From the sequence record PP047754: 64,000 nucleotides of DNA. The stretch is one strand, 5' to 3'. Below are positions 22,637 through 33,567 of the stretch, one piece after another. How positions within the stretch are numbered: position 1 is the first letter of the stretch; each line of letters starts with the position of its first letter. The DNA is from Escherichia phage KEP4. A program made the translations under genes and the position numbers. Under the pieces are notes generated by a model. The model did no database searches. It was not told where the DNA came from and was given only the letters and a program-made list of their open reading frames with translations.

Positions 22637-22663
22637 AACCCCGCCGTGTGCGGGGTTTCTTTT
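22637..22663 (+). terminator. rho-independent terminator
   Basis: aaccccgc-cgtgt-gcggggtt hairpin followed by TCTTTT. Confidence 0.6.
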
Positions 22664-22674
22664 GGACAAAAATC

Positions 22675-23085
22675 ATGAAATCTATTACGTGTGATTACTG
22701 CGGTCAACCTGCCCAATACGTCGGGTGTGATGTTGTATACCCCCACCGCCCCGACCTCCGCAATCTGAAGTTCTGGGTATGCTCGCCATGCGACGCTCGT
22801 GTGGGTTGCCATACCCATGGGGATGGTAGACAACCTCTGGGAAGGATGGCGAATGCCGCTCTCCGTGCTGCTAAGCAGGAAGCTCATAGATCGTTTGACC
22901 CTATCTGGAAAGGTGGGCAGAGGAGCAGGAGTGATGCTTACAGCTGGCTGGCTCATAATCTGGGGATCAAGAAGCGCGATTGCCATATCGGCTTGTTCGA
23001 TATCGATATGTGCCGTAAAGTAGTCGCTGTGTGTAATCAACTAAAGGCACAAGATAATGTCAAAGGAAATACAAGAAGCATTTGA
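22675..23085 (+). CDS. zinc-finger protein (phage DUF3268-like), 136 aa
   Basis: CDYCGQPA ... VYPHRPDL ... FWVCSPCDARVGCH Cys-rich pattern. Confidence 0.45.
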   Translation: MKSITCDYCGQPAQYVGCDVVYPHRPDLRNLKFWVCSPCDARVGCHTHGDGRQPLGRMANAALRAAKQEAHRSFDPIWKGGQRSRSDAYSWLAHNLGIKKRDCHIGLFDIDMCRKVVAVCNQLKAQDNVKGNTRSI

Positions 23086-23308
23086 AAATTTATCTCAGGT
23101 AATGACCGACTGTAACCGCCGGAATTATTGTGATGAAGCGTATACCAAATTGAAAACTACTGTTGAAACCGAGCTGGCAGGTCTTTCCGTTTTCAAAGAT
23201 ATTCAGACCGAAGCGCTATATCTGTCGGATGAAGATTTAAGGCGTTGCCCCCGCAAGATTTACCAATTACTGGATCGTTTGGTGAAAGTGGGGGTGAATA
23301 ATGGGTAA
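23057..23308 (+). CDS. hypothetical protein, 83 aa
   Basis: ORF overlapping its neighbours at both ends. Confidence 0.3.
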   Translation: MSKEIQEAFENLSQVMTDCNRRNYCDEAYTKLKTTVETELAGLSVFKDIQTEALYLSDEDLRRCPRKIYQLLDRLVKVGVNNG

Positions 23309-24026
23309 TCGTGAAGGGATTAAACTCACACCAGAACTTCTGAAGTCACATATTGCTGAAGTGATTTATGAAGACCGTGAAGTTGGTGGTCACCGCGTCA
23401 TTACATGCCATTTCAAGATGGACAATGGGTTCGTTGTGTGGGGTAAGAATAGTTCCACATCGGTAGACCCTGCCAACTTCGATGAAGAAATGGGCAAGCA
23501 GCTGGCCTATGAAAAGACCTTTTCTCAACTGTGGGAACTGGAAGCATATCGCGCGATGGTAGAAAAGCAGATCATCGATGTGTCTGCCGAAGATGCTAAG
23601 ATCAACATTGATGAATATGTGTCAGAAAGGGAAGCGATACATGAGATGGGTGGTTCTGAATTTCTTAAGGGTAAAGGACAATCCATCGTGTTTCGTCATC
23701 CCAAAGATCCAAGTCGGGGATTTCGCGTTGAATTTGTTCGCACCGATAATGAACGTTATAACGAACGACGCAATGGTGAGGCACGATCTTTGGTGGAAGC
23801 GTATCTTCGCTCGTTCATGACTTCTGAAGAACTAAATTCTGAACTTGTCTTGCGTTTGGCGAAAACGTGTAATGCTGCTTCAGGGGATTATCCGTGGTGT
23901 GACCTGTCAGAAGACAAACGCCAAGCAGCCTGTGATCGTGTTAAGAAATTCTTGTTAGATCCGAAAGCCCAACCTGGTGATTCCGTAGGGGCACTGTATA
24001 GAGCCATTGTGGTGTCCTACTTGTAA
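23301..24026 (+). CDS. hypothetical protein, 241 aa
   Basis: ORF with ATG start and GGTG RBS. Confidence 0.5.
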   Translation: MGNREGIKLTPELLKSHIAEVIYEDREVGGHRVITCHFKMDNGFVVWGKNSSTSVDPANFDEEMGKQLAYEKTFSQLWELEAYRAMVEKQIIDVSAEDAKINIDEYVSEREAIHEMGGSEFLKGKGQSIVFRHPKDPSRGFRVEFVRTDNERYNERRNGEARSLVEAYLRSFMTSEELNSELVLRLAKTCNAASGDYPWCDLSEDKRQAACDRVKKFLLDPKAQPGDSVGALYRAIVVSYL

Positions 24027-24293
24027 TTCTTCAAAAGTCTTTCAAAATCAATAACGTCCGGCAAAATGCTGGGCGTTTCAATTAATAAGCCAAGGTATAA
24101 TGGCCCAACTGAAAACGCGGGGGAATTTCTTTGTCCAAGCCATTCATTCGTTCCGGAGTTGATTCTCTAGACTCCCAATTTAAGCCGAGCGAAGTTTTAA
24201 TCCAACAAATTGAAACCAATCGTGAATTCATAGAACACATGTTGGCAAAGCCGGAAGGTGAAGCCGCTCAAACCACCAAAGAAGGTAATAACG

Positions 24294-26510
24294 ATGATTG
24301 AATCATTAACATTTAAAAATGCGGTAGCAACCGTCGCGCCGTCTAACCATGTAATCGTTGTGGATATCTCCGGTTCCATGTACCGTTCACTTCCTGAAGT
24401 TCGCAAGCATCTGAAGGAAAATCTCCCGTCTCTGGTTAAACCAGAAGATACCGTCAGCATTCTTTACTTTTCATCCCGTGGTGATTTCGGTACGGTATTC
24501 GCTGGCCGTCAGATCAATAGCGCGACCGATCTCAGTGAAATCAATAAACTGATTGACCGCTTCCTGCAACCGTCCGGTTGTACGGGATTTGTAGAACCTC
24601 TGAAGTTGGCTGCTGAAACCGCGTTGAGCCTGAACAAACCTGGTTATGTCAATAACCTGGCGTTCATGACCGACGGCTATGACAACTGCTGGCGCTCTAA
24701 TGAAATTCTGGCAGCAGCTGAAGTACTGCCCAAGGCGTTCGATAATATTACATTCATCGAATATGGCTGGTATTGTAACCGCGAACTTCTGGCTCTGATG
24801 TCCGAGCGTTCTGGCGCGACTCACGTGTTTGCCGAAGGTCAGACTGAATATCAGACCGAACTGGAAAACGTACTGAAATCATCTACGCCGAAAGTGGTTG
24901 TTGATGTTCCCCTGGTTTACACTCATGCCATCTACGTTGAAAACGGCGTGGCAACTGTGCTAGCCGTACAACCCGATGAAGAACACCCGATTGGCCACGT
25001 CAGCATCCCTGAAAGCGTTTCTCAGCTGTGGGTTGTAAACCCTAACATGATCGACCAGCTGGATAATCTGGCAGACACCCAGGCGGCATACGTGCTGGCA
25101 TTCTATGGCGTGTACACCATGGACGCCGATCTGGTCTGGGCCGCGCTGAAGAAGACGGGTGACGTCCGCTTCATCAAACAATACAGCAACTGTTTCACCA
25201 AGCAGGACTATTCCAACATCAAAGTCGATCTGACCCAGGCTATCGTGGATGAAACTCTACGCGGCGTAGATGGCATCGATTACAATATGGTTCCAGCTGA
25301 AGATGCAACGACCATTGTTGATGTCTTGACCTACCTGGCCGAAGCCGATGTCTCTGTTGTCACTAAGCATCCATTGTTCTCTTACAACAGCATCGGTCGC
25401 GGCACTGTGCAGAAAGTTGATGACACTGAAGACAAGCTGGCTGAACAAATCGCCGAAGCCAAAACCAAAGCAGAGCGTAAAGCGCTGGCTCTCAAACTGG
25501 CTGAGCACGAAGATTGGACACCGGAATTTACTCCGGTTGATGACAAAGGGATTGTCCCAATTAGCAATCTGGTCTACAATTCAGAGCGCCCTAACATCAG
25601 CATTCAGACCGTTCAGCATGGGACGGTTGTTGTGCCGGAGTTCGTACAGAAGAAATATGAACTCCCTGAAGAACTGGGAACCTGGCGTTATCGTAATTAC
25701 ACCATCGTCAAAGATGGAATCATCAACCTGAAGACGATGCCGATTACTGCCGAATCTCCGATTGTCCGAGCTAAGGTTGTCCAAGATTTGATCGCCATGG
25801 GCGTTAATGTATTTGGTGGACCGGAAATCTTCATCGTTAATTTAGAAAGCGTTCCGATGGTCAACCGCGCCATGACCAAGAACATCAGTGCTGCCGAATT
25901 CTTCGCTGACAACGTTCGTCGCGAAGCGCTGAAGGCAAAACAGAAAGTTCTGAAATTCTATCGTGATGAACTGGTTGGCAAAGGCAATGCAACTGGTCTG
26001 GCTTCTAAATATGGTAAAGAAGCCGCCGATTTCTTGTCGGCAAATGGCATTCGCGACTACGGGTTCTCGCCGAAAACTACTTCTGTGGAATCAACCGATG
26101 TCTACATGAGCCGTGAGCTGAATGTGAAAATCAAAGGTGCTTCGTCGCTGCCGAGCATTGCGTCAGTTATCAAAAAGCAAGCAGATGGTAAAAAACTGAA
26201 TGTCGCTGATCAGTTGATTGCCAATGCTTTGGCCGAATACGACGCTTTTGTTAAATCGCCAATGATCACCAGCGTACCTGAAGAGACTCAGAAAAAGCTG
26301 ATTGAAAGCTGGATCGGGGACGCAGCAAAAGCGGCCATTAACGAAGTCCGCGCCCTGAACAAAACTCTGTCTAAAGTAGTTTACGGCATCGTCGCTGGTC
26401 ATGGTTGGTTCACTGATTTGGATCTGGAAGAGTCTACGATGGATGTAGAAGTTGATGGGGTGAAATACACCGTCACTGCCGAACTGGCCGAAAAAGAAAT
26501 CAAAATCTAA
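24294..26510 (+). CDS. von Willebrand factor A (vWA) domain protein, 738 aa
   Basis: MIDAS motif VVDISGSM (DxSxS) near the N-terminus, then MTDGYDN; ORF-track start 24258 is a GTG, ATG 24294 chosen. Confidence 0.6.
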   Translation: MIESLTFKNAVATVAPSNHVIVVDISGSMYRSLPEVRKHLKENLPSLVKPEDTVSILYFSSRGDFGTVFAGRQINSATDLSEINKLIDRFLQPSGCTGFVEPLKLAAETALSLNKPGYVNNLAFMTDGYDNCWRSNEILAAAEVLPKAFDNITFIEYGWYCNRELLALMSERSGATHVFAEGQTEYQTELENVLKSSTPKVVVDVPLVYTHAIYVENGVATVLAVQPDEEHPIGHVSIPESVSQLWVVNPNMIDQLDNLADTQAAYVLAFYGVYTMDADLVWAALKKTGDVRFIKQYSNCFTKQDYSNIKVDLTQAIVDETLRGVDGIDYNMVPAEDATTIVDVLTYLAEADVSVVTKHPLFSYNSIGRGTVQKVDDTEDKLAEQIAEAKTKAERKALALKLAEHEDWTPEFTPVDDKGIVPISNLVYNSERPNISIQTVQHGTVVVPEFVQKKYELPEELGTWRYRNYTIVKDGIINLKTMPITAESPIVRAKVVQDLIAMGVNVFGGPEIFIVNLESVPMVNRAMTKNISAAEFFADNVRREALKAKQKVLKFYRDELVGKGNATGLASKYGKEAADFLSANGIRDYGFSPKTTSVESTDVYMSRELNVKIKGASSLPSIASVIKKQADGKKLNVADQLIANALAEYDAFVKSPMITSVPEETQKKLIESWIGDAAKAAINEVRALNKTLSKVVYGIVAGHGWFTDLDLEESTMDVEVDGVKYTVTAELAEKEIKI

Positions 26511-26548: not shown

Positions 26549-26866
26549 ATGAATATGAGCAACAAACCGACTTATGTTGATGTCATGCGCGATTTGGCCC
26601 AATACGCATGTGACAACCTGAACATGGAAACTTGGCGCGACGGCGATCATAAAGAAAAGTTCGATAATATCGACGACAACATCGATGCGTTGGCTCCTCT
26701 TCGGGCCAAGAGCGATCTCGGCGGTGATGATCTTGACATGATTGAACTCATCATGGAAGTTGAAGAACAATATGATGTTGAAATCAGTGATGACTGGGTA
26801 GGCAAACATGGTGATGATCCCACGCTCGGCGAATTAGCTGAATTGGTAGTTGCCCTCAGCAAGTAA
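26549..26866 (+). CDS. acyl carrier protein-like protein with Ser-to-Asp at the attachment site, 105 aa
   Basis: DLGGDDLDMIELIMEVEEQYDVEISDD aligns with E. coli ACP [27 protein letters not shown]; the phosphopantetheinylated Ser is Asp; AGGA RBS. Confidence 0.55.
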   Translation: MNMSNKPTYVDVMRDLAQYACDNLNMETWRDGDHKEKFDNIDDNIDALAPLRAKSDLGGDDLDMIELIMEVEEQYDVEISDDWVGKHGDDPTLGELAELVVALSK

Positions 26867-30590: not shown

Positions 30591-30620
30591 AAGGCGGTTA
30601 TTATTAAACCGCCTTTTATT
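30591..30620 (+). terminator. rho-independent terminator
   Basis: ggcggtt-attatta-aaccgcc hairpin followed by TTTTATTT. Confidence 0.6.
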
Positions 30621-30635
30621 TGAGAGATCTATATT

Positions 30636-31304
30636 ATGAATAAGAAGAGTCGTATCATCATCGGCGCGGATCAGGGAAATCTGTATTTTGATACAACTGG
30701 TGCTATCGCCCACGCCATCCTTCCAACAGGTATTTCTGTTTATTGCGTCGAACATCCAGATCCAGCGATCAAACGACTTTGTTACATCCATCGTGAAAAG
30801 GGATTGATCGTATTACCAGAAGGCGCAATTATGCGCGCTCGTTTTTGGCCGATTGATTTTAATTCCATGAGCAATAGGGAGATCGACGCCCGTTTCTTCG
30901 CATATAATATGAACCGGACTCTAAAAAATGAAACTCAGAGAGTTGTTCATTTCGACAATGAAACTCATGGAGTGACGTTAGAATTCAGAATTCGTGGTGA
31001 AGCTATTCAGGTGAAGAAATCAAGCTGGAAAACTGAAGGGACGTTCACATATGATTATGCGTTAATCGACAAATTGTGCAATCAGTTTCGCATTAGTCTG
31101 ACTGCCAACGACGATTTAGGTCAGTATGTTGTATGGACAGCCCGTTCACCACATATGAACGGTATCATGATGGAGAGTGAAACTCGTAATCGCGCTGTGC
31201 TCCAACTGCTGCTGTTAGACGCGTATTCTCGCAACCCGTTGGAATATCTGTCTCGGGAACAGATTGATAACGCGCTTTCTCATTGTAACCGTCTGGAGGT
31301 GTAA
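30636..31304 (+). CDS. hypothetical protein, 222 aa
   Basis: ORF with ATG start. Confidence 0.5.
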   Translation: MNKKSRIIIGADQGNLYFDTTGAIAHAILPTGISVYCVEHPDPAIKRLCYIHREKGLIVLPEGAIMRARFWPIDFNSMSNREIDARFFAYNMNRTLKNETQRVVHFDNETHGVTLEFRIRGEAIQVKKSSWKTEGTFTYDYALIDKLCNQFRISLTANDDLGQYVVWTARSPHMNGIMMESETRNRAVLQLLLLDAYSRNPLEYLSREQIDNALSHCNRLEV

Positions 31305-31305
31305 T

Positions 31306-31593
31306 ATGTCCGGCGTATGGTGTGATGTATTATTAGTGAGATTTTCAAATGGGATGGATAACCAGATTATTTCATTCTTTTATCCTGTTCCCTTTTCTTC
31401 TATGGGTCTGACTGTCAAGCGCGTTCTTGACATAGAAGAAAACCTCAACGCTATGCCGTATATGGCGCGACCACACGTGCTGGGTTGTGAACTGTTAAAC
31501 GAAATGATGATTGATGAGAATCTTGTTGAAACAATTATCACGCGTGAACAGATGAAAACCATACTGGCTCAGGGAGAACCCCATGTCGAATAA
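31306..31593 (+). CDS. hypothetical protein, 95 aa
   Basis: ATG after GGAGGTG; ORF-track start 31264 is an alternative codon. Confidence 0.4.
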   Translation: MSGVWCDVLLVRFSNGMDNQIISFFYPVPFSSMGLTVKRVLDIEENLNAMPYMARPHVLGCELLNEMMIDENLVETIITREQMKTILAQGEPHVE

Positions 31594-31903
31594 ACCGTTT
31601 GAACTTAAATTTCGCGTTTGGCATATTCCCCAGGTTCCTGGGATCGCTTTTCATGTTGAGGTTCCAACATTTGAAGAAGCGCAGCGCCTGAAGAATGCTC
31701 TGGGTGATTATGATTTGTTCCAGTTCAACAACAATATCAAGCCGGATTATTGCAATGCTTCGGGCATTCAGATTTATCAACATGATCTGACCGATGATGA
31801 TCTTAATGATATGGGTCTGGATGATCGTTGGGTTGATATGGAAGATGTTGACGAACTCAACGATTATTTCGAGCATCTGCGCAGTACAGGGTGGGAAATA
31901 TGA
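31583..31903 (+). CDS. small acidic protein, 106 aa (DNA-mimic-like composition)
   Basis: AGGGAGAA RBS; C-terminal half very Asp/Glu-rich (DLTDDDLNDMGLDDRWVDMEDVDELNDYFEHL). Confidence 0.45.
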   Translation: MSNKPFELKFRVWHIPQVPGIAFHVEVPTFEEAQRLKNALGDYDLFQFNNNIKPDYCNASGIQIYQHDLTDDDLNDMGLDDRWVDMEDVDELNDYFEHLRSTGWEI

Positions 31904-32208
31904 TTTCAAAATATATTGTAAAGCCTGGGGATACTCTGTCCAGGATCGCTCTAAAATTATATGGTGATGCCCAACAGTATATCAAATTAGCCAGATTCAA
32001 CAATATCCAAAACCCAGGCCATATCACGGTTGGTCAGATTATTTGTTTACCCACACCTGTCGAAGACAAAGAACACATTATGATTCCGGTTCAACCGACT
32101 CAGAAGTGTTTGGATGCGATAGCTGGTTTATTTCGGCCAGGTTTTTGTGATGGAACTATTGAACGTCACATTTATCAAGCGATTGTGGAAAACGCAGGTG
32201 TAAAATGA
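31900..32208 (+). CDS. LysM domain protein, 102 aa
   Basis: YIVKPGDTLSRIALKLYGDAQQYIKLARFNNIQNPGHITVGQIICLP matches the LysM peptidoglycan-binding motif. Confidence 0.6.
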   Translation: MISKYIVKPGDTLSRIALKLYGDAQQYIKLARFNNIQNPGHITVGQIICLPTPVEDKEHIMIPVQPTQKCLDAIAGLFRPGFCDGTIERHIYQAIVENAGVK

Positions 32209-32414
32209 TCGGATTAATTCGTTACCTGTTCATATTCGTAATTTCAACATTCATTTTATTTTTCTTTTTCAAATACTTGAAAGAGACTAAAATCTACCGA
32301 AGTAAACGTTGGCGCAAACGGGTGAGGGTAACTTTCCTGCTGCTGATTTCTTCGGTTACAATAACCGCACTCACATTGGGTGCATATATCTACATTTTTG
32401 AAGGGGTACATTGA
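32205..32414 (+). CDS. small membrane protein with two predicted TM helices, 69 aa
   Basis: Hydrophobic segments LFIFVISTFILFFFF and VTFLLLISSVTITALTLGAYIYIF separated by a basic loop; start and stop overlap both neighbours. Confidence 0.45.
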   Translation: MIGLIRYLFIFVISTFILFFFFKYLKETKIYRSKRWRKRVRVTFLLLISSVTITALTLGAYIYIFEGVH

Positions 32415-33205
32415 TGTTCAAGAAATTGGTGTTCGGTGCAATTATGGTTCTGGCTGCAAGTCTACTTTCTGGTTGTGGCGGCGTTATCGATGAAGGTAAT
32501 GTCGGCGTTCGCACCCAATGGGGTGAAGTAGACATGAACCCTGTAACAGCGGGGATCTACACCAGCTTTGTTTCAAGCGTGGATGTTTACACGACCAAAG
32601 AAGCCGTTGTGAGTCTGACTAAAATGACGCCAAAGGCCAAAGACAACCTGACTCTGGAAGACTTGGATGTGGATGTTTATTACACACCCAATGTCGCAAA
32701 GGTTCCGTGGTTCCATACCAAATTTGCTGGCCAGAGCGCCGAACTCGATGATGGCACGATAGCGGTGGGTTTCAATCTAGTTAAAACTGCTGCAGCATCT
32801 TCTTCGATGGACGCCGTTTCTTCTCTTGATTCTATGACAATTCACACCCAACGTGCTGAATTAGAGAAGATGATTAAAGACCGCACTCAGCAACAATTAG
32901 AGACTGCTGCGCCTGGCATGTTCACAATCACACGCGTGTTGGTCAAAAAGGCGCTGACGGATCCTTCTATTGAGCAGTCTATCCGTGATAATGTTATGGC
33001 GGACAAACGATTGGATACGGCAAGAAAGAACGTTGAAATTCGCGAGCAAGAAGCCCAAGCGAACCAGAAACTGACCACTTCGCTGACGCCTGAATATCTT
33101 CAACATGAATATAACATGGTATTACAATCATGTGCCAATAGTGGAAAATGTACTCTGATCGTTGACGGATCCGGCTCAGGTAAAATGCTGAACGTCGGCA
33201 AATAA
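32414..33205 (+). CDS. SPFH/band-7 (HflK/C-, stomatin-like) lipoprotein, 263 aa
   Basis: Lipoprotein signal MFKKLVFGAIMVLAASLLSGC (lipobox LSGC), then GNVGVRTQWGEV SPFH-type N-terminal motif and coiled-coil region. Confidence 0.5.
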   Translation: MFKKLVFGAIMVLAASLLSGCGGVIDEGNVGVRTQWGEVDMNPVTAGIYTSFVSSVDVYTTKEAVVSLTKMTPKAKDNLTLEDLDVDVYYTPNVAKVPWFHTKFAGQSAELDDGTIAVGFNLVKTAAASSSMDAVSSLDSMTIHTQRAELEKMIKDRTQQQLETAAPGMFTITRVLVKKALTDPSIEQSIRDNVMADKRLDTARKNVEIREQEAQANQKLTTSLTPEYLQHEYNMVLQSCANSGKCTLIVDGSGSGKMLNVGK

Positions 33206-33288
33206 ACGCTTTATTCAATAATATTTGTTAGGTAAGCTGTAGTCCTCTTGTAGTGAAACATTGTAAACAACTAACTGGAGTAATCCGA

Positions 33289-33567
33289 ATGAACCGTACT
33301 GATTTTATCGCTCACATCGCCCAGACTCAGGGTATGACCAAAGGCGAAGCAGAGAAGATCGTGGCATCCTTTATCAACGGCGTAAAAACTGCAGTCGCAG
33401 CTGGCCAATCTGTCCAATTCGTCGGCTTTGGCGCGTTTGAAGTTAAACATCAGGAAGCGCGCACTGGCCGCAACCCGCTGAACGGGCAAGCGATTCAGAT
33501 CGAAGCGAAAAATGTTGTTAAATTCAAAGTCGGTGAAGGTCTGAAAGCTGCTGCCAACGGCCAGTAA
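33289..33567 (+). CDS. HU/IHF-family histone-like DNA-binding protein
   Basis: 92 aa; VQFVGFGAFEVKHQEARTGRNPLNGQAIQIEAKNVVKFKVG matches the HU signature GFGxF...R.GRNP.TG. Confidence 0.85.
   Translation: MNRTDFIAHIAQTQGMTKGEAEKIVASFINGVKTAVAAGQSVQFVGFGAFEVKHQEARTGRNPLNGQAIQIEAKNVVKFKVGEGLKAAANGQ

What the first reader, a model, noticed from the sequence alone, without database searches (positions are those of the whole stretch)
31583..31903. Small highly acidic protein: DNA-mimic / anti-restriction candidate
A 106-aa protein whose C-terminal half is dominated by Asp/Glu interspersed with aromatic residues (DLTDDDLNDMGLDDRWVDMEDVDELNDYFEHL). This composition is typical of DNA-mimic inhibitors such as Ocr or ArdA-type anti-restriction proteins. 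Its stop overlaps the LysM gene start.
Basis: inference. Interest (0 to 1): 0.45.

Follow-up and report, generated by a model that had tools for sequence, protein, structure and literature searches.

The report
P22 gp17-like anti-exclusion protein
The small acidic gene is real. It is already annotated in this group of Salmonella phages as a relative of phage P22 gene 17, which lets P22 grow on cells carrying the Fels-2 prophage, so it is probably a counter-defence gene but nothing shows it is a DNA mimic.

Summary
The ORF at 31583..31903 (+) exists as described: 106 aa, pI 4.28, net charge about -14, with 16 of its 22 Asp/Glu in residues 54-106. The window is a Kuttervirus (Vi01-like Salmonella myophage).

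The protein matches Pfam PF17420 'GP17' at E=6e-52 and is 55% identical to P22 gp17. The P22 RefSeq note for that gene reads 'allows growth on phage Fels2 lysogen'. Dozens of Kuttervirus GenBank records annotate the same gene as 'superinfection exclusion protein', and a 2022 paper discusses it. That name is misleading, because the founding member overcomes exclusion.

The Ocr/ArdA/DNA-mimic part is not:
- There is no sequence, profile or fold match to any solved structure.
- The confident AF2 model is a compact alpha/beta domain.
- The invariant residues lie in the near-neutral N-terminal half.
- The most acidic helix is missing from 70 of 120 homologs.

Acidity itself is a family trait (median net charge -12), so binding to a basic surface stays plausible. 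The target and mechanism are unknown. One lead is that Fels-2 carries an AbiU/AIPR abortive-infection gene in its defence hotspot. Overall this is ordinary and already annotated.

The parts
31583..31903 (+). GP17-family gene (106 aa plus stop). It is the P22 gene 17 homolog, annotated 'superinfection exclusion protein' in related phages.
   Evidence: ORF and translation. PF17420 at E=6e-52. PHROG 1510. 55% identity to P22 gp17 and 54% to N4 gp18. The same CDS is annotated in phage sal1, CBA120 and Mutine.
31572..31576 (+). Shine-Dalgarno-like GGGAG, 6 nt upstream of the ATG
   Evidence: Read directly from the sequence. An RBS is annotated at the equivalent position in phage Mutine.
31613..31642 (+). 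Conserved motif 1, residues 11-20 (RVWHIPQVPG): strand beta1 and the loop after it
   Evidence: Alignment A1 of 120 homologs. V12, W13 and Q17 are invariant. R11, H14, I15, P16, V18 and P19 are at least 90% conserved. Secondary structure from the AF2 model.
31709..31765 (+). Conserved motif 2, residues 43-61 (YDLFQFNNNIKPDYCNASG): end of helix alpha1 and the loop into beta3
   Evidence: Y43, D44, F46, Q47, I52, K53, N58 and G61 are invariant. P54, D55 and Y56 are at least 90% conserved.
31781..31819 (+). Lineage-specific acidic insert, residues 67-79 (HDLTDDDLNDMGL). It forms helix alpha2.
   Evidence: Columns for residues 69-79 are gaps in 54-62% of homologs. 70 of 120 homologs lack residues 69-78. 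In the insert-less homolog P0049 this region is predicted as a beta-hairpin.
31822..31882 (+). Acidic C-terminal segment, residues 80-100 (beta4 plus helix alpha3). Composition is conserved, sequence is not, except W83.
   Evidence: 40-90% of homologs carry an acidic residue at most of these positions, while residue identity is low. Structure.
31306..31593 (+). Upstream gene, DUF7425 (95 aa). Its last 11 nt overlap the GP17 start, so it is probably co-translated.
   Evidence: PF24200 at E=1e-51. PHROG 5397. The adjacency is kept in Kuttervirus and in the Klebsiella Taipeivirus phage.
31900..32208 (+). Downstream LysM-domain gene (102 aa). Its ATG overlaps the GP17 stop (ATGA). It is not a conserved partner of GP17.
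   Evidence: LysM PF01476 at E=4.7e-11. Annotated in sal1 and Mutine. Absent after GP17 in CBA120.

Best explanation
This is the Kuttervirus copy of the P22 gene 17 family (Pfam PF17420). It encodes a small, soluble, cytoplasmic, strongly acidic alpha/beta protein that the phage makes to escape an abortive-infection or exclusion function carried by the host or by a resident prophage. The prototype is the Fels-2 prophage of Salmonella Typhimurium.

Shown here:
- Family membership.
- Purifying selection.
- A confident compact fold with no membrane segment.
- A conserved acidic character.
- Presence of the family in counter-defence and recombination regions of lambdoid phages.

Taken from annotation and literature: P22 needs gene 17 to grow on Fels-2 lysogens.

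Inferred: the protein acts by stoichiometric binding to a protein target. The invariant N-terminal surface (RVWHIPQVPG and YDxFQxxNNIKPDYxNxxG) would give specificity. The variable acidic C-terminal face would dock onto a basic site. The target is unknown. The best candidate I can name is the AbiU/AIPR-type abortive-infection protein that sits in the Fels-2 defence hotspot.
For: - Family: PF17420 at E=6e-52 and PHROG 1510 at 1.8e-52. BLASTP gives 55% identity and E=3e-38 to P22 gp17.
- Phenotype of the founding member: the P22 RefSeq note for gene 17 reads 'allows growth on phage Fels2 lysogen'. PMC6486243 and PMC9409062 section 2.7.4 describe it as needed to counteract a Fels-2 exclusion system, citing Semerjian et al. 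1989. PMC9409062 already proposes the same role for Kutterviruses, including SeF3a, which is 99.9% identical to this window over the 1.5 kb queried (hit H4).
- Genomic context: in P22 the gene lies in the PL early-left operon between ral (restriction alleviation) and c3-kil-arf-erf-abc1-abc2 (anti-RecBCD). In E. coli lambdoid prophages it lies between N and cIII-kil-RecT.
- Real, selected gene: dN/dS 0.04-0.23, and no hydrophobic segment (maximum 19-residue Kyte-Doolittle average 0.68).
- Structure: the AF2 model has pLDDT 93.5 and pTM 0.83.
- Acidity is a family trait even in homologs without the acidic helix (median net charge -11).
- Candidate target: Fels-2 STM2723.1 matches PADLOC AbiU at E=2.7e-112, Pfam AIPR at 8.8e-43 and a PHROG Abi family at 1.6e-150. 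It lies between gpQ and gpA, the position of tin/old in P2 (the P2 gene order is from my own knowledge). AbiU is reported in P2 defence hotspots (PMC13586616).
Against: - No experiment on any Kuttervirus copy was found.
- The only phenotype in the family comes from 1980s P22 genetics, which I could cite only through annotation and secondary papers. The original paper is not in the held library.
- No paper in the library gives a target or mechanism.
- The gene keeps its position across Ackermannviridae genera (Kuttervirus, Taipeivirus, Miltonvirus) next to replication genes. It is also unusually well conserved for an inhibitor in an arms race, with 11 invariant and about 13 near-invariant residues from enterobacterial to Bacillus, Nocardia and Mycobacterium phages. 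That pattern fits a conserved host target or a ligand at least as well as a fast-evolving defence protein.
- The AbiU link rests only on Fels-2 gene content. Fels-2 has other uncharacterised cargo, for example STM2726.
- Direct binding is pure inference. I had no access to model coordinates and no complex prediction.
Confidence: 0.6

Rival explanations
1. Ocr/ArdA-type DNA mimic. The acidic surface imitates B-form DNA and blocks type I restriction-modification or BREX enzymes.
For: - High negative charge (net -14 over 106 aa, pI 4.28) concentrated in one half, with aromatic residues.
- Acidity is conserved in composition across the family.
- In P22 the gene lies three genes from ral.
- From my own knowledge, small alpha/beta DNA mimics exist (Ugi, AcrIIA4), so a compact fold does not exclude mimicry.
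Against: - No Pfam hit to Ocr or ArdA.
- No PDB sequence or profile hit.
- The invariant residues are in the neutral half.
- The most acidic helix is dispensable in 58% of homologs.
- Only 12 plasmid records carry the family, 11 of them non-mobilizable, unlike ArdA.
- The only recorded phenotype is escape from a prophage exclusion, not from restriction.
Confidence: 0.07
2. Host-takeover or DNA-metabolism accessory factor. The protein binds a conserved host protein, for example a nucleic-acid-binding or recombination/replication factor. The Fels-2 phenotype in P22 would then be an indirect consequence: the factor stops the phage from producing the signal that triggers the prophage system.
For: - Very strong conservation over phages of Proteobacteria, Firmicutes and Actinobacteria.
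- Fixed position among replication and recombination genes in Ackermannviridae: HU-like protein, helicase, RNase H, recombination nuclease.
- Located beside recombination genes in lambdoid phages and after the RNAP genes in N4.
Against: - By its RefSeq note and the cited papers, P22 gene 17 is required only on Fels-2 lysogens.
- No similarity to any known host-factor inhibitor.
Confidence: 0.2
3. Small-molecule binder (a sponge for an immune signal) or a small enzyme. The invariant polar cluster (H14, Q17, D44, Q47, K53, D55, Y56, N58) would form a ligand or active site.
For: An unusual number of invariant polar residues for a protein of about 100 aa, grouped in two loops next to each other in sequence and topology. 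Wide taxonomic spread.
Against: - No fold or sequence relation to known sponges or enzymes in the PDB.
- No known signalling system is identified in Fels-2.
- The polar invariants may simply hold the long loops in place.
Confidence: 0.1
4. A true superinfection exclusion protein, as the database name says. It would protect the infected cell from a second phage.
For: Only the product name carried by GenBank, Pfam and PHROG.
Against: - The name derives from P22 gene 17, whose recorded role is the opposite: escape from exclusion.
- No signal peptide or transmembrane segment. From my own knowledge, characterised Sie proteins that block DNA entry (T4 Imm/Sp, P22 SieA) are membrane proteins.
- The gene is found mostly in strictly lytic phages in early or middle gene regions.
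Confidence: 0.03

Closest known systems
Phage P22 gene 17 product (Pfam PF17420 GP17, InterPro IPR020285, PHROG 1510)
   Same: Same family: 55% identity over 97 residues at E=3e-38, all family invariants present, similar length (106 aa against 103), acidic, with the same acidic 'LTDxDLxDMxLDDRW' insert. Both are expressed from a non-structural gene region.
   Different: P22 is a temperate podovirus and the gene lies in its PL operon. Here it lies in a virulent Ackermannviridae myovirus, coupled to DUF7425 and next to replication genes. The C-terminal helix differs, and the tail STGWEI is specific to Ackermannviridae. No phenotype has been tested for this copy.
Coliphage N4 gp18 and homologs in N4-like phages
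   Same: 54% identity at E=2e-36. Both are in virulent phages in a non-structural region. The N4 record notes 'similar to P22 gp17'.
   Different: Different phage family and different neighbours (after RNAP1, RNAP2 and the 32 kDa protein). Function is also untested.
T7 Ocr and ArdA (DNA-mimic anti-restriction proteins)
   Same: Small, very acidic, phage- or mobile-element-encoded, and probably counter-defence. May share the general principle of an acidic surface docking onto a basic site.
   Different: No detectable sequence, profile or fold similarity. The predicted fold is a compact four-stranded sheet with three helices. From my own knowledge, Ocr is an elongated helical dimer and ArdA an elongated multi-domain protein. 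The conserved residues are not the acidic ones. The family is rare on plasmids.
ERH (enhancer of rudimentary homolog) fold
   Different: Scores are below significance, sequence identity is about 10%, and ERH is eukaryotic. This is a topological resemblance only and does not indicate homology.
Surt, an anti-AbiU protein of Vibrio phages (bioRxiv 10.1101/2024.06.14.598830)
   Same: If GP17 targets the AbiU/AIPR protein of Fels-2, the two would be functional analogues.
   Different: No GP17 motif (WHIPQ, WWIPQ, VWHVPQ, IKPDY, IKPDF) occurs in that paper's held supplementary sequence tables, some of which were truncated on storage. There is no evidence of relatedness.

Membership tests
PF17420 GP17 (P22 gene 17 family) | Sequence match to the family profile above the curated threshold | tested here: met
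   174.2 bits against a cut-off of 25, E=6.3e-52, covering profile positions 1-98 of 98. PHROG 1510 at E=1.8e-52.
PF17420 GP17 (P22 gene 17 family) | Direct similarity to the founding member, P22 gp17 | tested here: met
   BLASTP: 53 of 97 residues identical (55%), E=3e-38.
PF17420 GP17 (P22 gene 17 family) | Family-invariant residues present (V12, W13, Q17, Y43, D44, F46, Q47, I52, K53, N58, G61) | tested here: met
   All are present in the window protein. Alignment A1 has 120 sequences.
PF17420 GP17 (P22 gene 17 family) | Phenotype: required for growth on a Fels-2 lysogen | not testable with these tools
   Known only for P22 (RefSeq note; PMC6486243). Needs phage genetics.
Ocr (T7 gp0.3) family | Sequence or profile similarity to Ocr | tested here: not met
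   PF17420 is the only Pfam hit at E<=0.1. phmmer and profile searches of all PDB sequences, which I assume include Ocr, found nothing relevant at E<=10.
Ocr (T7 gp0.3) family | Elongated all-helical dimer whose surface carboxylates follow bent B-DNA (family description from my own knowledge) | tested here: not met
ArdA family | Sequence, profile or fold similarity to ArdA | tested here: not met
   No Pfam ArdA hit. No PDB sequence or profile hit. No ArdA among the fold matches listed.
ArdA family | Typical location on conjugative plasmids and transposons (leading region) | tested here: not met
   Only 12 of 72,556 plasmid records have a match. 11 are non-mobilizable and by size and organism look mostly like phage-plasmids; 1 is conjugative.
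DNA-mimic proteins in general (a functional class, not a homologous family) | Strong net negative charge | tested here: met
   Net charge -14 over 106 aa, pI 4.28. Family median net charge -12.
DNA-mimic proteins in general (a functional class, not a homologous family) | Surface carboxylates arranged like DNA phosphates, and competition with DNA for a DNA-binding protein | not testable with these tools
   Model coordinates are not exposed and no binding assay is possible. Indirect evidence is weakly against: the acidic helix is absent from 58% of homologs and the invariant residues lie elsewhere.
Superinfection exclusion (Sie) proteins that block DNA entry (T4 Imm/Sp, P22 SieA type) | Membrane or periplasmic location (transmembrane segment or signal peptide) | tested here: not met
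   Maximum 19-residue Kyte-Doolittle average 0.68, GRAVY -0.66, and no hydrophobic N-terminus.

The most novel reading that the evidence does not exclude
The GP17 family could be a widespread inhibitor of AIPR/AbiU-type abortive-infection proteins. The family has about 1400 clusters at 50% identity and occurs in phages of enterobacteria, Bacillus, Nocardia and Mycobacterium. Its conserved N-terminal surface would recognise the Abi protein, and its acidic C-terminal face would plug a basic, nucleic-acid-binding site.

In this reading the 'Fels-2 exclusion' that P22 gene 17 overcomes is STM2723.1, the AbiU homolog in the Fels-2 tin/old-type hotspot. That would give a mechanism to a 35-year-old genetic observation. 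It would also explain why Kutterviruses, used in Salmonella phage cocktails, all keep this gene.
Probability: 0.15. Interest if true: 0.55.

Novelty: already known. Interest (0 to 1): 0.2.

Why it matters
The practical value is in correcting a label. 'Superinfection exclusion protein' on this gene in hundreds of phage records suggests a function opposite to the one recorded for the founding member. The gene is better read as a probable counter-defence factor.

Kutterviruses are common components of Salmonella and E. coli O157 biocontrol cocktails. Knowing which prophage-borne defence this gene neutralises would help predict host range on lysogens. The family is large and well conserved, its predicted fold has no solved relative, and its target is unknown. 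It is therefore a reasonable but not urgent candidate for anti-defence screens. The finding adds nothing that existing annotation and a 2022 paper had not already stated.

Tried and rejected
2. AFDB50 fold search. The library was not available. BFVD returned only family members plus sub-threshold matches such as DUF7336 at E=0.016.
3. NCBIfam and PADLOC. No hit for the protein or its neighbours.
4. Literature. None was found (with readings at 13, 14, 19, 22, 23, 31, 68-72, 87, 88). The P2 OLD preprint names a different inhibitor (Oad2, EaE-like), and Fels-2 carries AbiU rather than OLD at that position. I therefore dropped an 'anti-OLD' idea.
5. Vibrio anti-defence predictions, including the anti-AbiU protein Surt. 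No GP17 motif occurs in the held supplement text.
6. Domain fusions as functional hints. The fusion partners are DUF6166, Phage_gp49_66 and zinc-ribbon-like N-termini, all of unknown function.
7. LysM as a functional partner. Rejected because CBA120 lacks the LysM gene after GP17.
8. Promoter and terminator scan. Promoter-like sites are no more frequent than in shuffled sequence, and Kuttervirus promoter classes are not modelled. Expression timing therefore remains untested.
9. The antisense 123-aa ORF (31538..31909, - strand). It has no family hit and is a shadow of the real gene.

Full report
**1.

The + strand carries an ORF from ATG 31583 to TGA 31901-31903 that encodes 106 residues. A GGGAG ribosome-binding site sits 6 nt upstream.

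- The start overlaps the last 11 nt of the preceding gene.
- The stop shares ATGA with the start of the LysM gene at 31900.
- The protein has pI 4.28 and a charge of about -14 at pH 7.
- The first 53 residues are neutral (6 acidic, 6 basic). Residues 54-106 hold 16 Asp/Glu, 2 Lys/Arg and 6 aromatic residues.
- Among roughly 85 non-overlapping ORFs in the window, only an acyl-carrier-like protein at 26549..26866 is more acidic per residue.
- A longer antisense ORF (31538..31909) is a shadow with no family match.

**2. What the window is**

The 1.5 kb around the gene is 99.9% identical to several Salmonella Kuttervirus genomes (Ackermannviridae; GEC_vB_GOT, sal1, SeF3a). It matches 165 phage records at 90% identity or more.

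**3. What the gene is**

- The protein matches Pfam PF17420, 'GP17, superinfection exclusion gene product 17', at E=6.3e-52 over the whole profile, and PHROG 1510 at 1.8e-52.
- It is 55% identical to P22 gp17 (E=3e-38) and 54% identical to coliphage N4 gp18.
- Related Kuttervirus records already annotate the same CDS as 'superinfection exclusion protein'.
- Among three Kuttervirus orthologs, dN/dS is 0.04-0.23. Comparisons with the Klebsiella Taipeivirus copy are saturated at synonymous sites. Changes in the acidic region are mostly Asp/Glu exchanges.
- The family is large. A word-indexed search found 144 clusters at 90% identity. An exhaustive profile search found 1441 representatives at 50% identity, 948 of them below 1e-10.
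- In the phage collection the family occurs in 325 records. These include Ackermannviridae of Salmonella, Escherichia, Klebsiella, Serratia and Erwinia; P22-like and Stx phages; N4-like phages; and phages of Bacillus, Nocardia and Mycobacterium.

**4. What is known about the family**

The P22 RefSeq record labels gene 17 'superinfection exclusion' but notes 'allows growth on phage Fels2 lysogen'. [quoted passage not shown] 1989 (PMC6486243).

A 2022 study of new Salmonella phages calls phrog_1510 a hallmark of Kuttervirus. It proposes that the gene lets these phages grow on strains with Fels-2-like exclusion systems (PMC9409062). That study includes SeF3a, which is 99.9% identical here.

The database name is therefore misleading: the founding member is an anti-exclusion factor. 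I found no paper in the held library that gives a target or mechanism.

**5. Genomic context**

- In P22 the gene lies in the PL early-left operon, between ral/orf78/orf87 and c3-kil-arf-erf-abc1-abc2.
- In E. coli lambdoid prophages a homolog lies between N and cIII-kil-RecT. These are host-takeover and counter-defence regions.
- In this window the gene belongs to a tightly packed + strand block that follows a terminator-like hairpin at 30591-30615. The block is an unknown gene at 30636, then DUF7425, GP17, LysM, a small membrane protein and an SPFH lipoprotein. An HU-like protein, a helicase, RNase H, a late sigma factor and a recombination nuclease follow.
- The position is kept in Taipeivirus and Miltonvirus.
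- CBA120 lacks the LysM gene, so the overlap with LysM is not a conserved functional coupling.

**6. Structure**

With 120 homologs as alignment, AlphaFold2 gives a confident model (mean pLDDT 93.5, pTM 0.83). The order of elements is beta(10-15), beta(23-27), alpha(30-49), beta(59-65), alpha(71-77), beta(83-86), alpha(89-101).

An 88-residue homolog that lacks the acidic insert (P0049) folds with pLDDT 90.5 as beta-beta-alpha-beta-beta-alpha. It has a hairpin where the window protein has helix alpha2.

**7. Where conservation lies**

Eleven residues are invariant and about thirteen more are at least 90% conserved. All but W83 lie in residues 11-61, in two motifs: RVWHIPQVPG and YDxFQxxNNIKPDYxNxxG.

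The C-terminal half is conserved in composition (acidic) but not in sequence. Residues 69-78, the most acidic stretch, are missing from 70 of 120 homologs. Those homologs are still acidic, with a median net charge of -11 over 94 residues. Across 263 family members the median pI is 4.34 and the median net charge is -12.

Negative charge is thus a selected property of the family, but the specificity determinants are elsewhere.

**8. Interpretation**

The specific proposal of an Ocr/ArdA-type DNA mimic against restriction or BREX fails every membership test I could run:

- no profile hit;
- no PDB sequence or profile hit;
- no fold match;
- a different fold class;
- near absence from conjugative plasmids, with 12 records, 11 of them non-mobilizable.

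A looser 'acidic decoy for a basic site' mechanism remains possible. I could not test it because model coordinates are not exposed.

A true Sie function is unlikely. The protein has no membrane segment, and the prototype does the opposite.

**9. A lead on the target**

Fels-2 (NC_010463) has two cargo genes between the portal gene Q and the replication gene A, the position of tin/old in P2 (P2 gene order from my own knowledge). They are STM2723.1 (565 aa) and STM2726 (243 aa).

STM2723.1 matches PADLOC AbiU at E=2.7e-112, Pfam AIPR at 8.8e-43 and a PHROG abortive-infection family at 1.6e-150. AbiU is reported among systems found in P2 and P4 hotspots (PMC13586616). AIPR-like proteins also occur in Mycobacterium phages.

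This makes STM2723.1 the obvious candidate for the Fels-2 exclusion that gene 17 overcomes. The link is inference from gene content only, and I rate it at about 15%.

**10. Verdict**

- The gene is already annotated and discussed in the literature, so it is not novel.
- The family's mechanism remains open, which gives the finding a modest residual interest.

Noticed in passing
L009 (Fels-2, NC_010463) 22639-24336, - strand: The Fels-2 gene STM2723.1, annotated 'hypothetical protein', is a full-length AbiU/AIPR abortive-infection homolog (PADLOC AbiU E=2.7e-112, Pfam AIPR 8.8e-43). It sits in the tin/old-type hotspot between gpQ and gpA. It is a candidate for the classical 'Fels-2 exclusion' that P22 gene 17 overcomes. 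Its neighbour STM2726 (243 aa, PHROG 1353) has no known function.
   Followed up: partly
window 26549-26866 (+): This is the most acidic protein in the window (105 aa, net charge -18, pI 4.05). It is an acyl-carrier-like protein with a phosphopantetheine attachment site (PF00550, E=4.7e-07). In related phages it lies just after a von Willebrand factor A domain gene. That is an unusual pairing for a phage.
   Followed up: partly
window 31900-32208 (+): This 102-aa protein consists essentially of one LysM domain. Several related records label it 'endolysin', although no catalytic domain is detectable. The gene is absent at this position in phage CBA120.
   Followed up: partly
window 32205-33205 (+): A small predicted membrane protein (69 aa, 32205-32414) overlaps the start of an SPFH/Band-7 lipoprotein (264 aa; PF01145 E=3e-13; PHROG 200 'lipoprotein'). 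The pair is conserved across Kuttervirus genomes. Its role is unknown.
   Followed up: no
window 31306-31593 (+): DUF7425 (95 aa, PF24200 E=1e-51) overlaps the GP17 start by 11 nt. It stays adjacent to GP17 in Kuttervirus and Taipeivirus. It may be a functional partner, but I did not check co-occurrence outside Ackermannviridae.
   Followed up: partly
window 30591-30615 (both strands): A perfect 9-bp GC-rich hairpin (AAGGCGGTT...AACCGCCTT) followed by a T-run on the + strand. It is annotated as a terminator at the same place in phage Mutine. It probably marks the start of the transcription unit that contains the GP17 gene.
   Followed up: no
proteins P0235, P0216, P0066, P0127 (metagenomic homologs): In some homologs the GP17 domain is fused to another domain: DUF6166 at the C-terminus (E=3.8e-23), the Phage_gp49_66 domain (N4 gp49 / Sf6 gene 66; E=2e-09), or Cys-rich zinc-ribbon-like N-terminal extensions. 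All partners are of unknown function. Two proteins (P0140, P0196) appear to carry a second, degenerate copy of the domain.
   Followed up: partly
window 33253-33567 (+): A phage-encoded HU/IHF-type DNA-binding protein (PF00216, E=1.6e-29) lies just upstream of a DNA helicase gene. It is conserved in all the Ackermannviridae examined.
   Followed up: no
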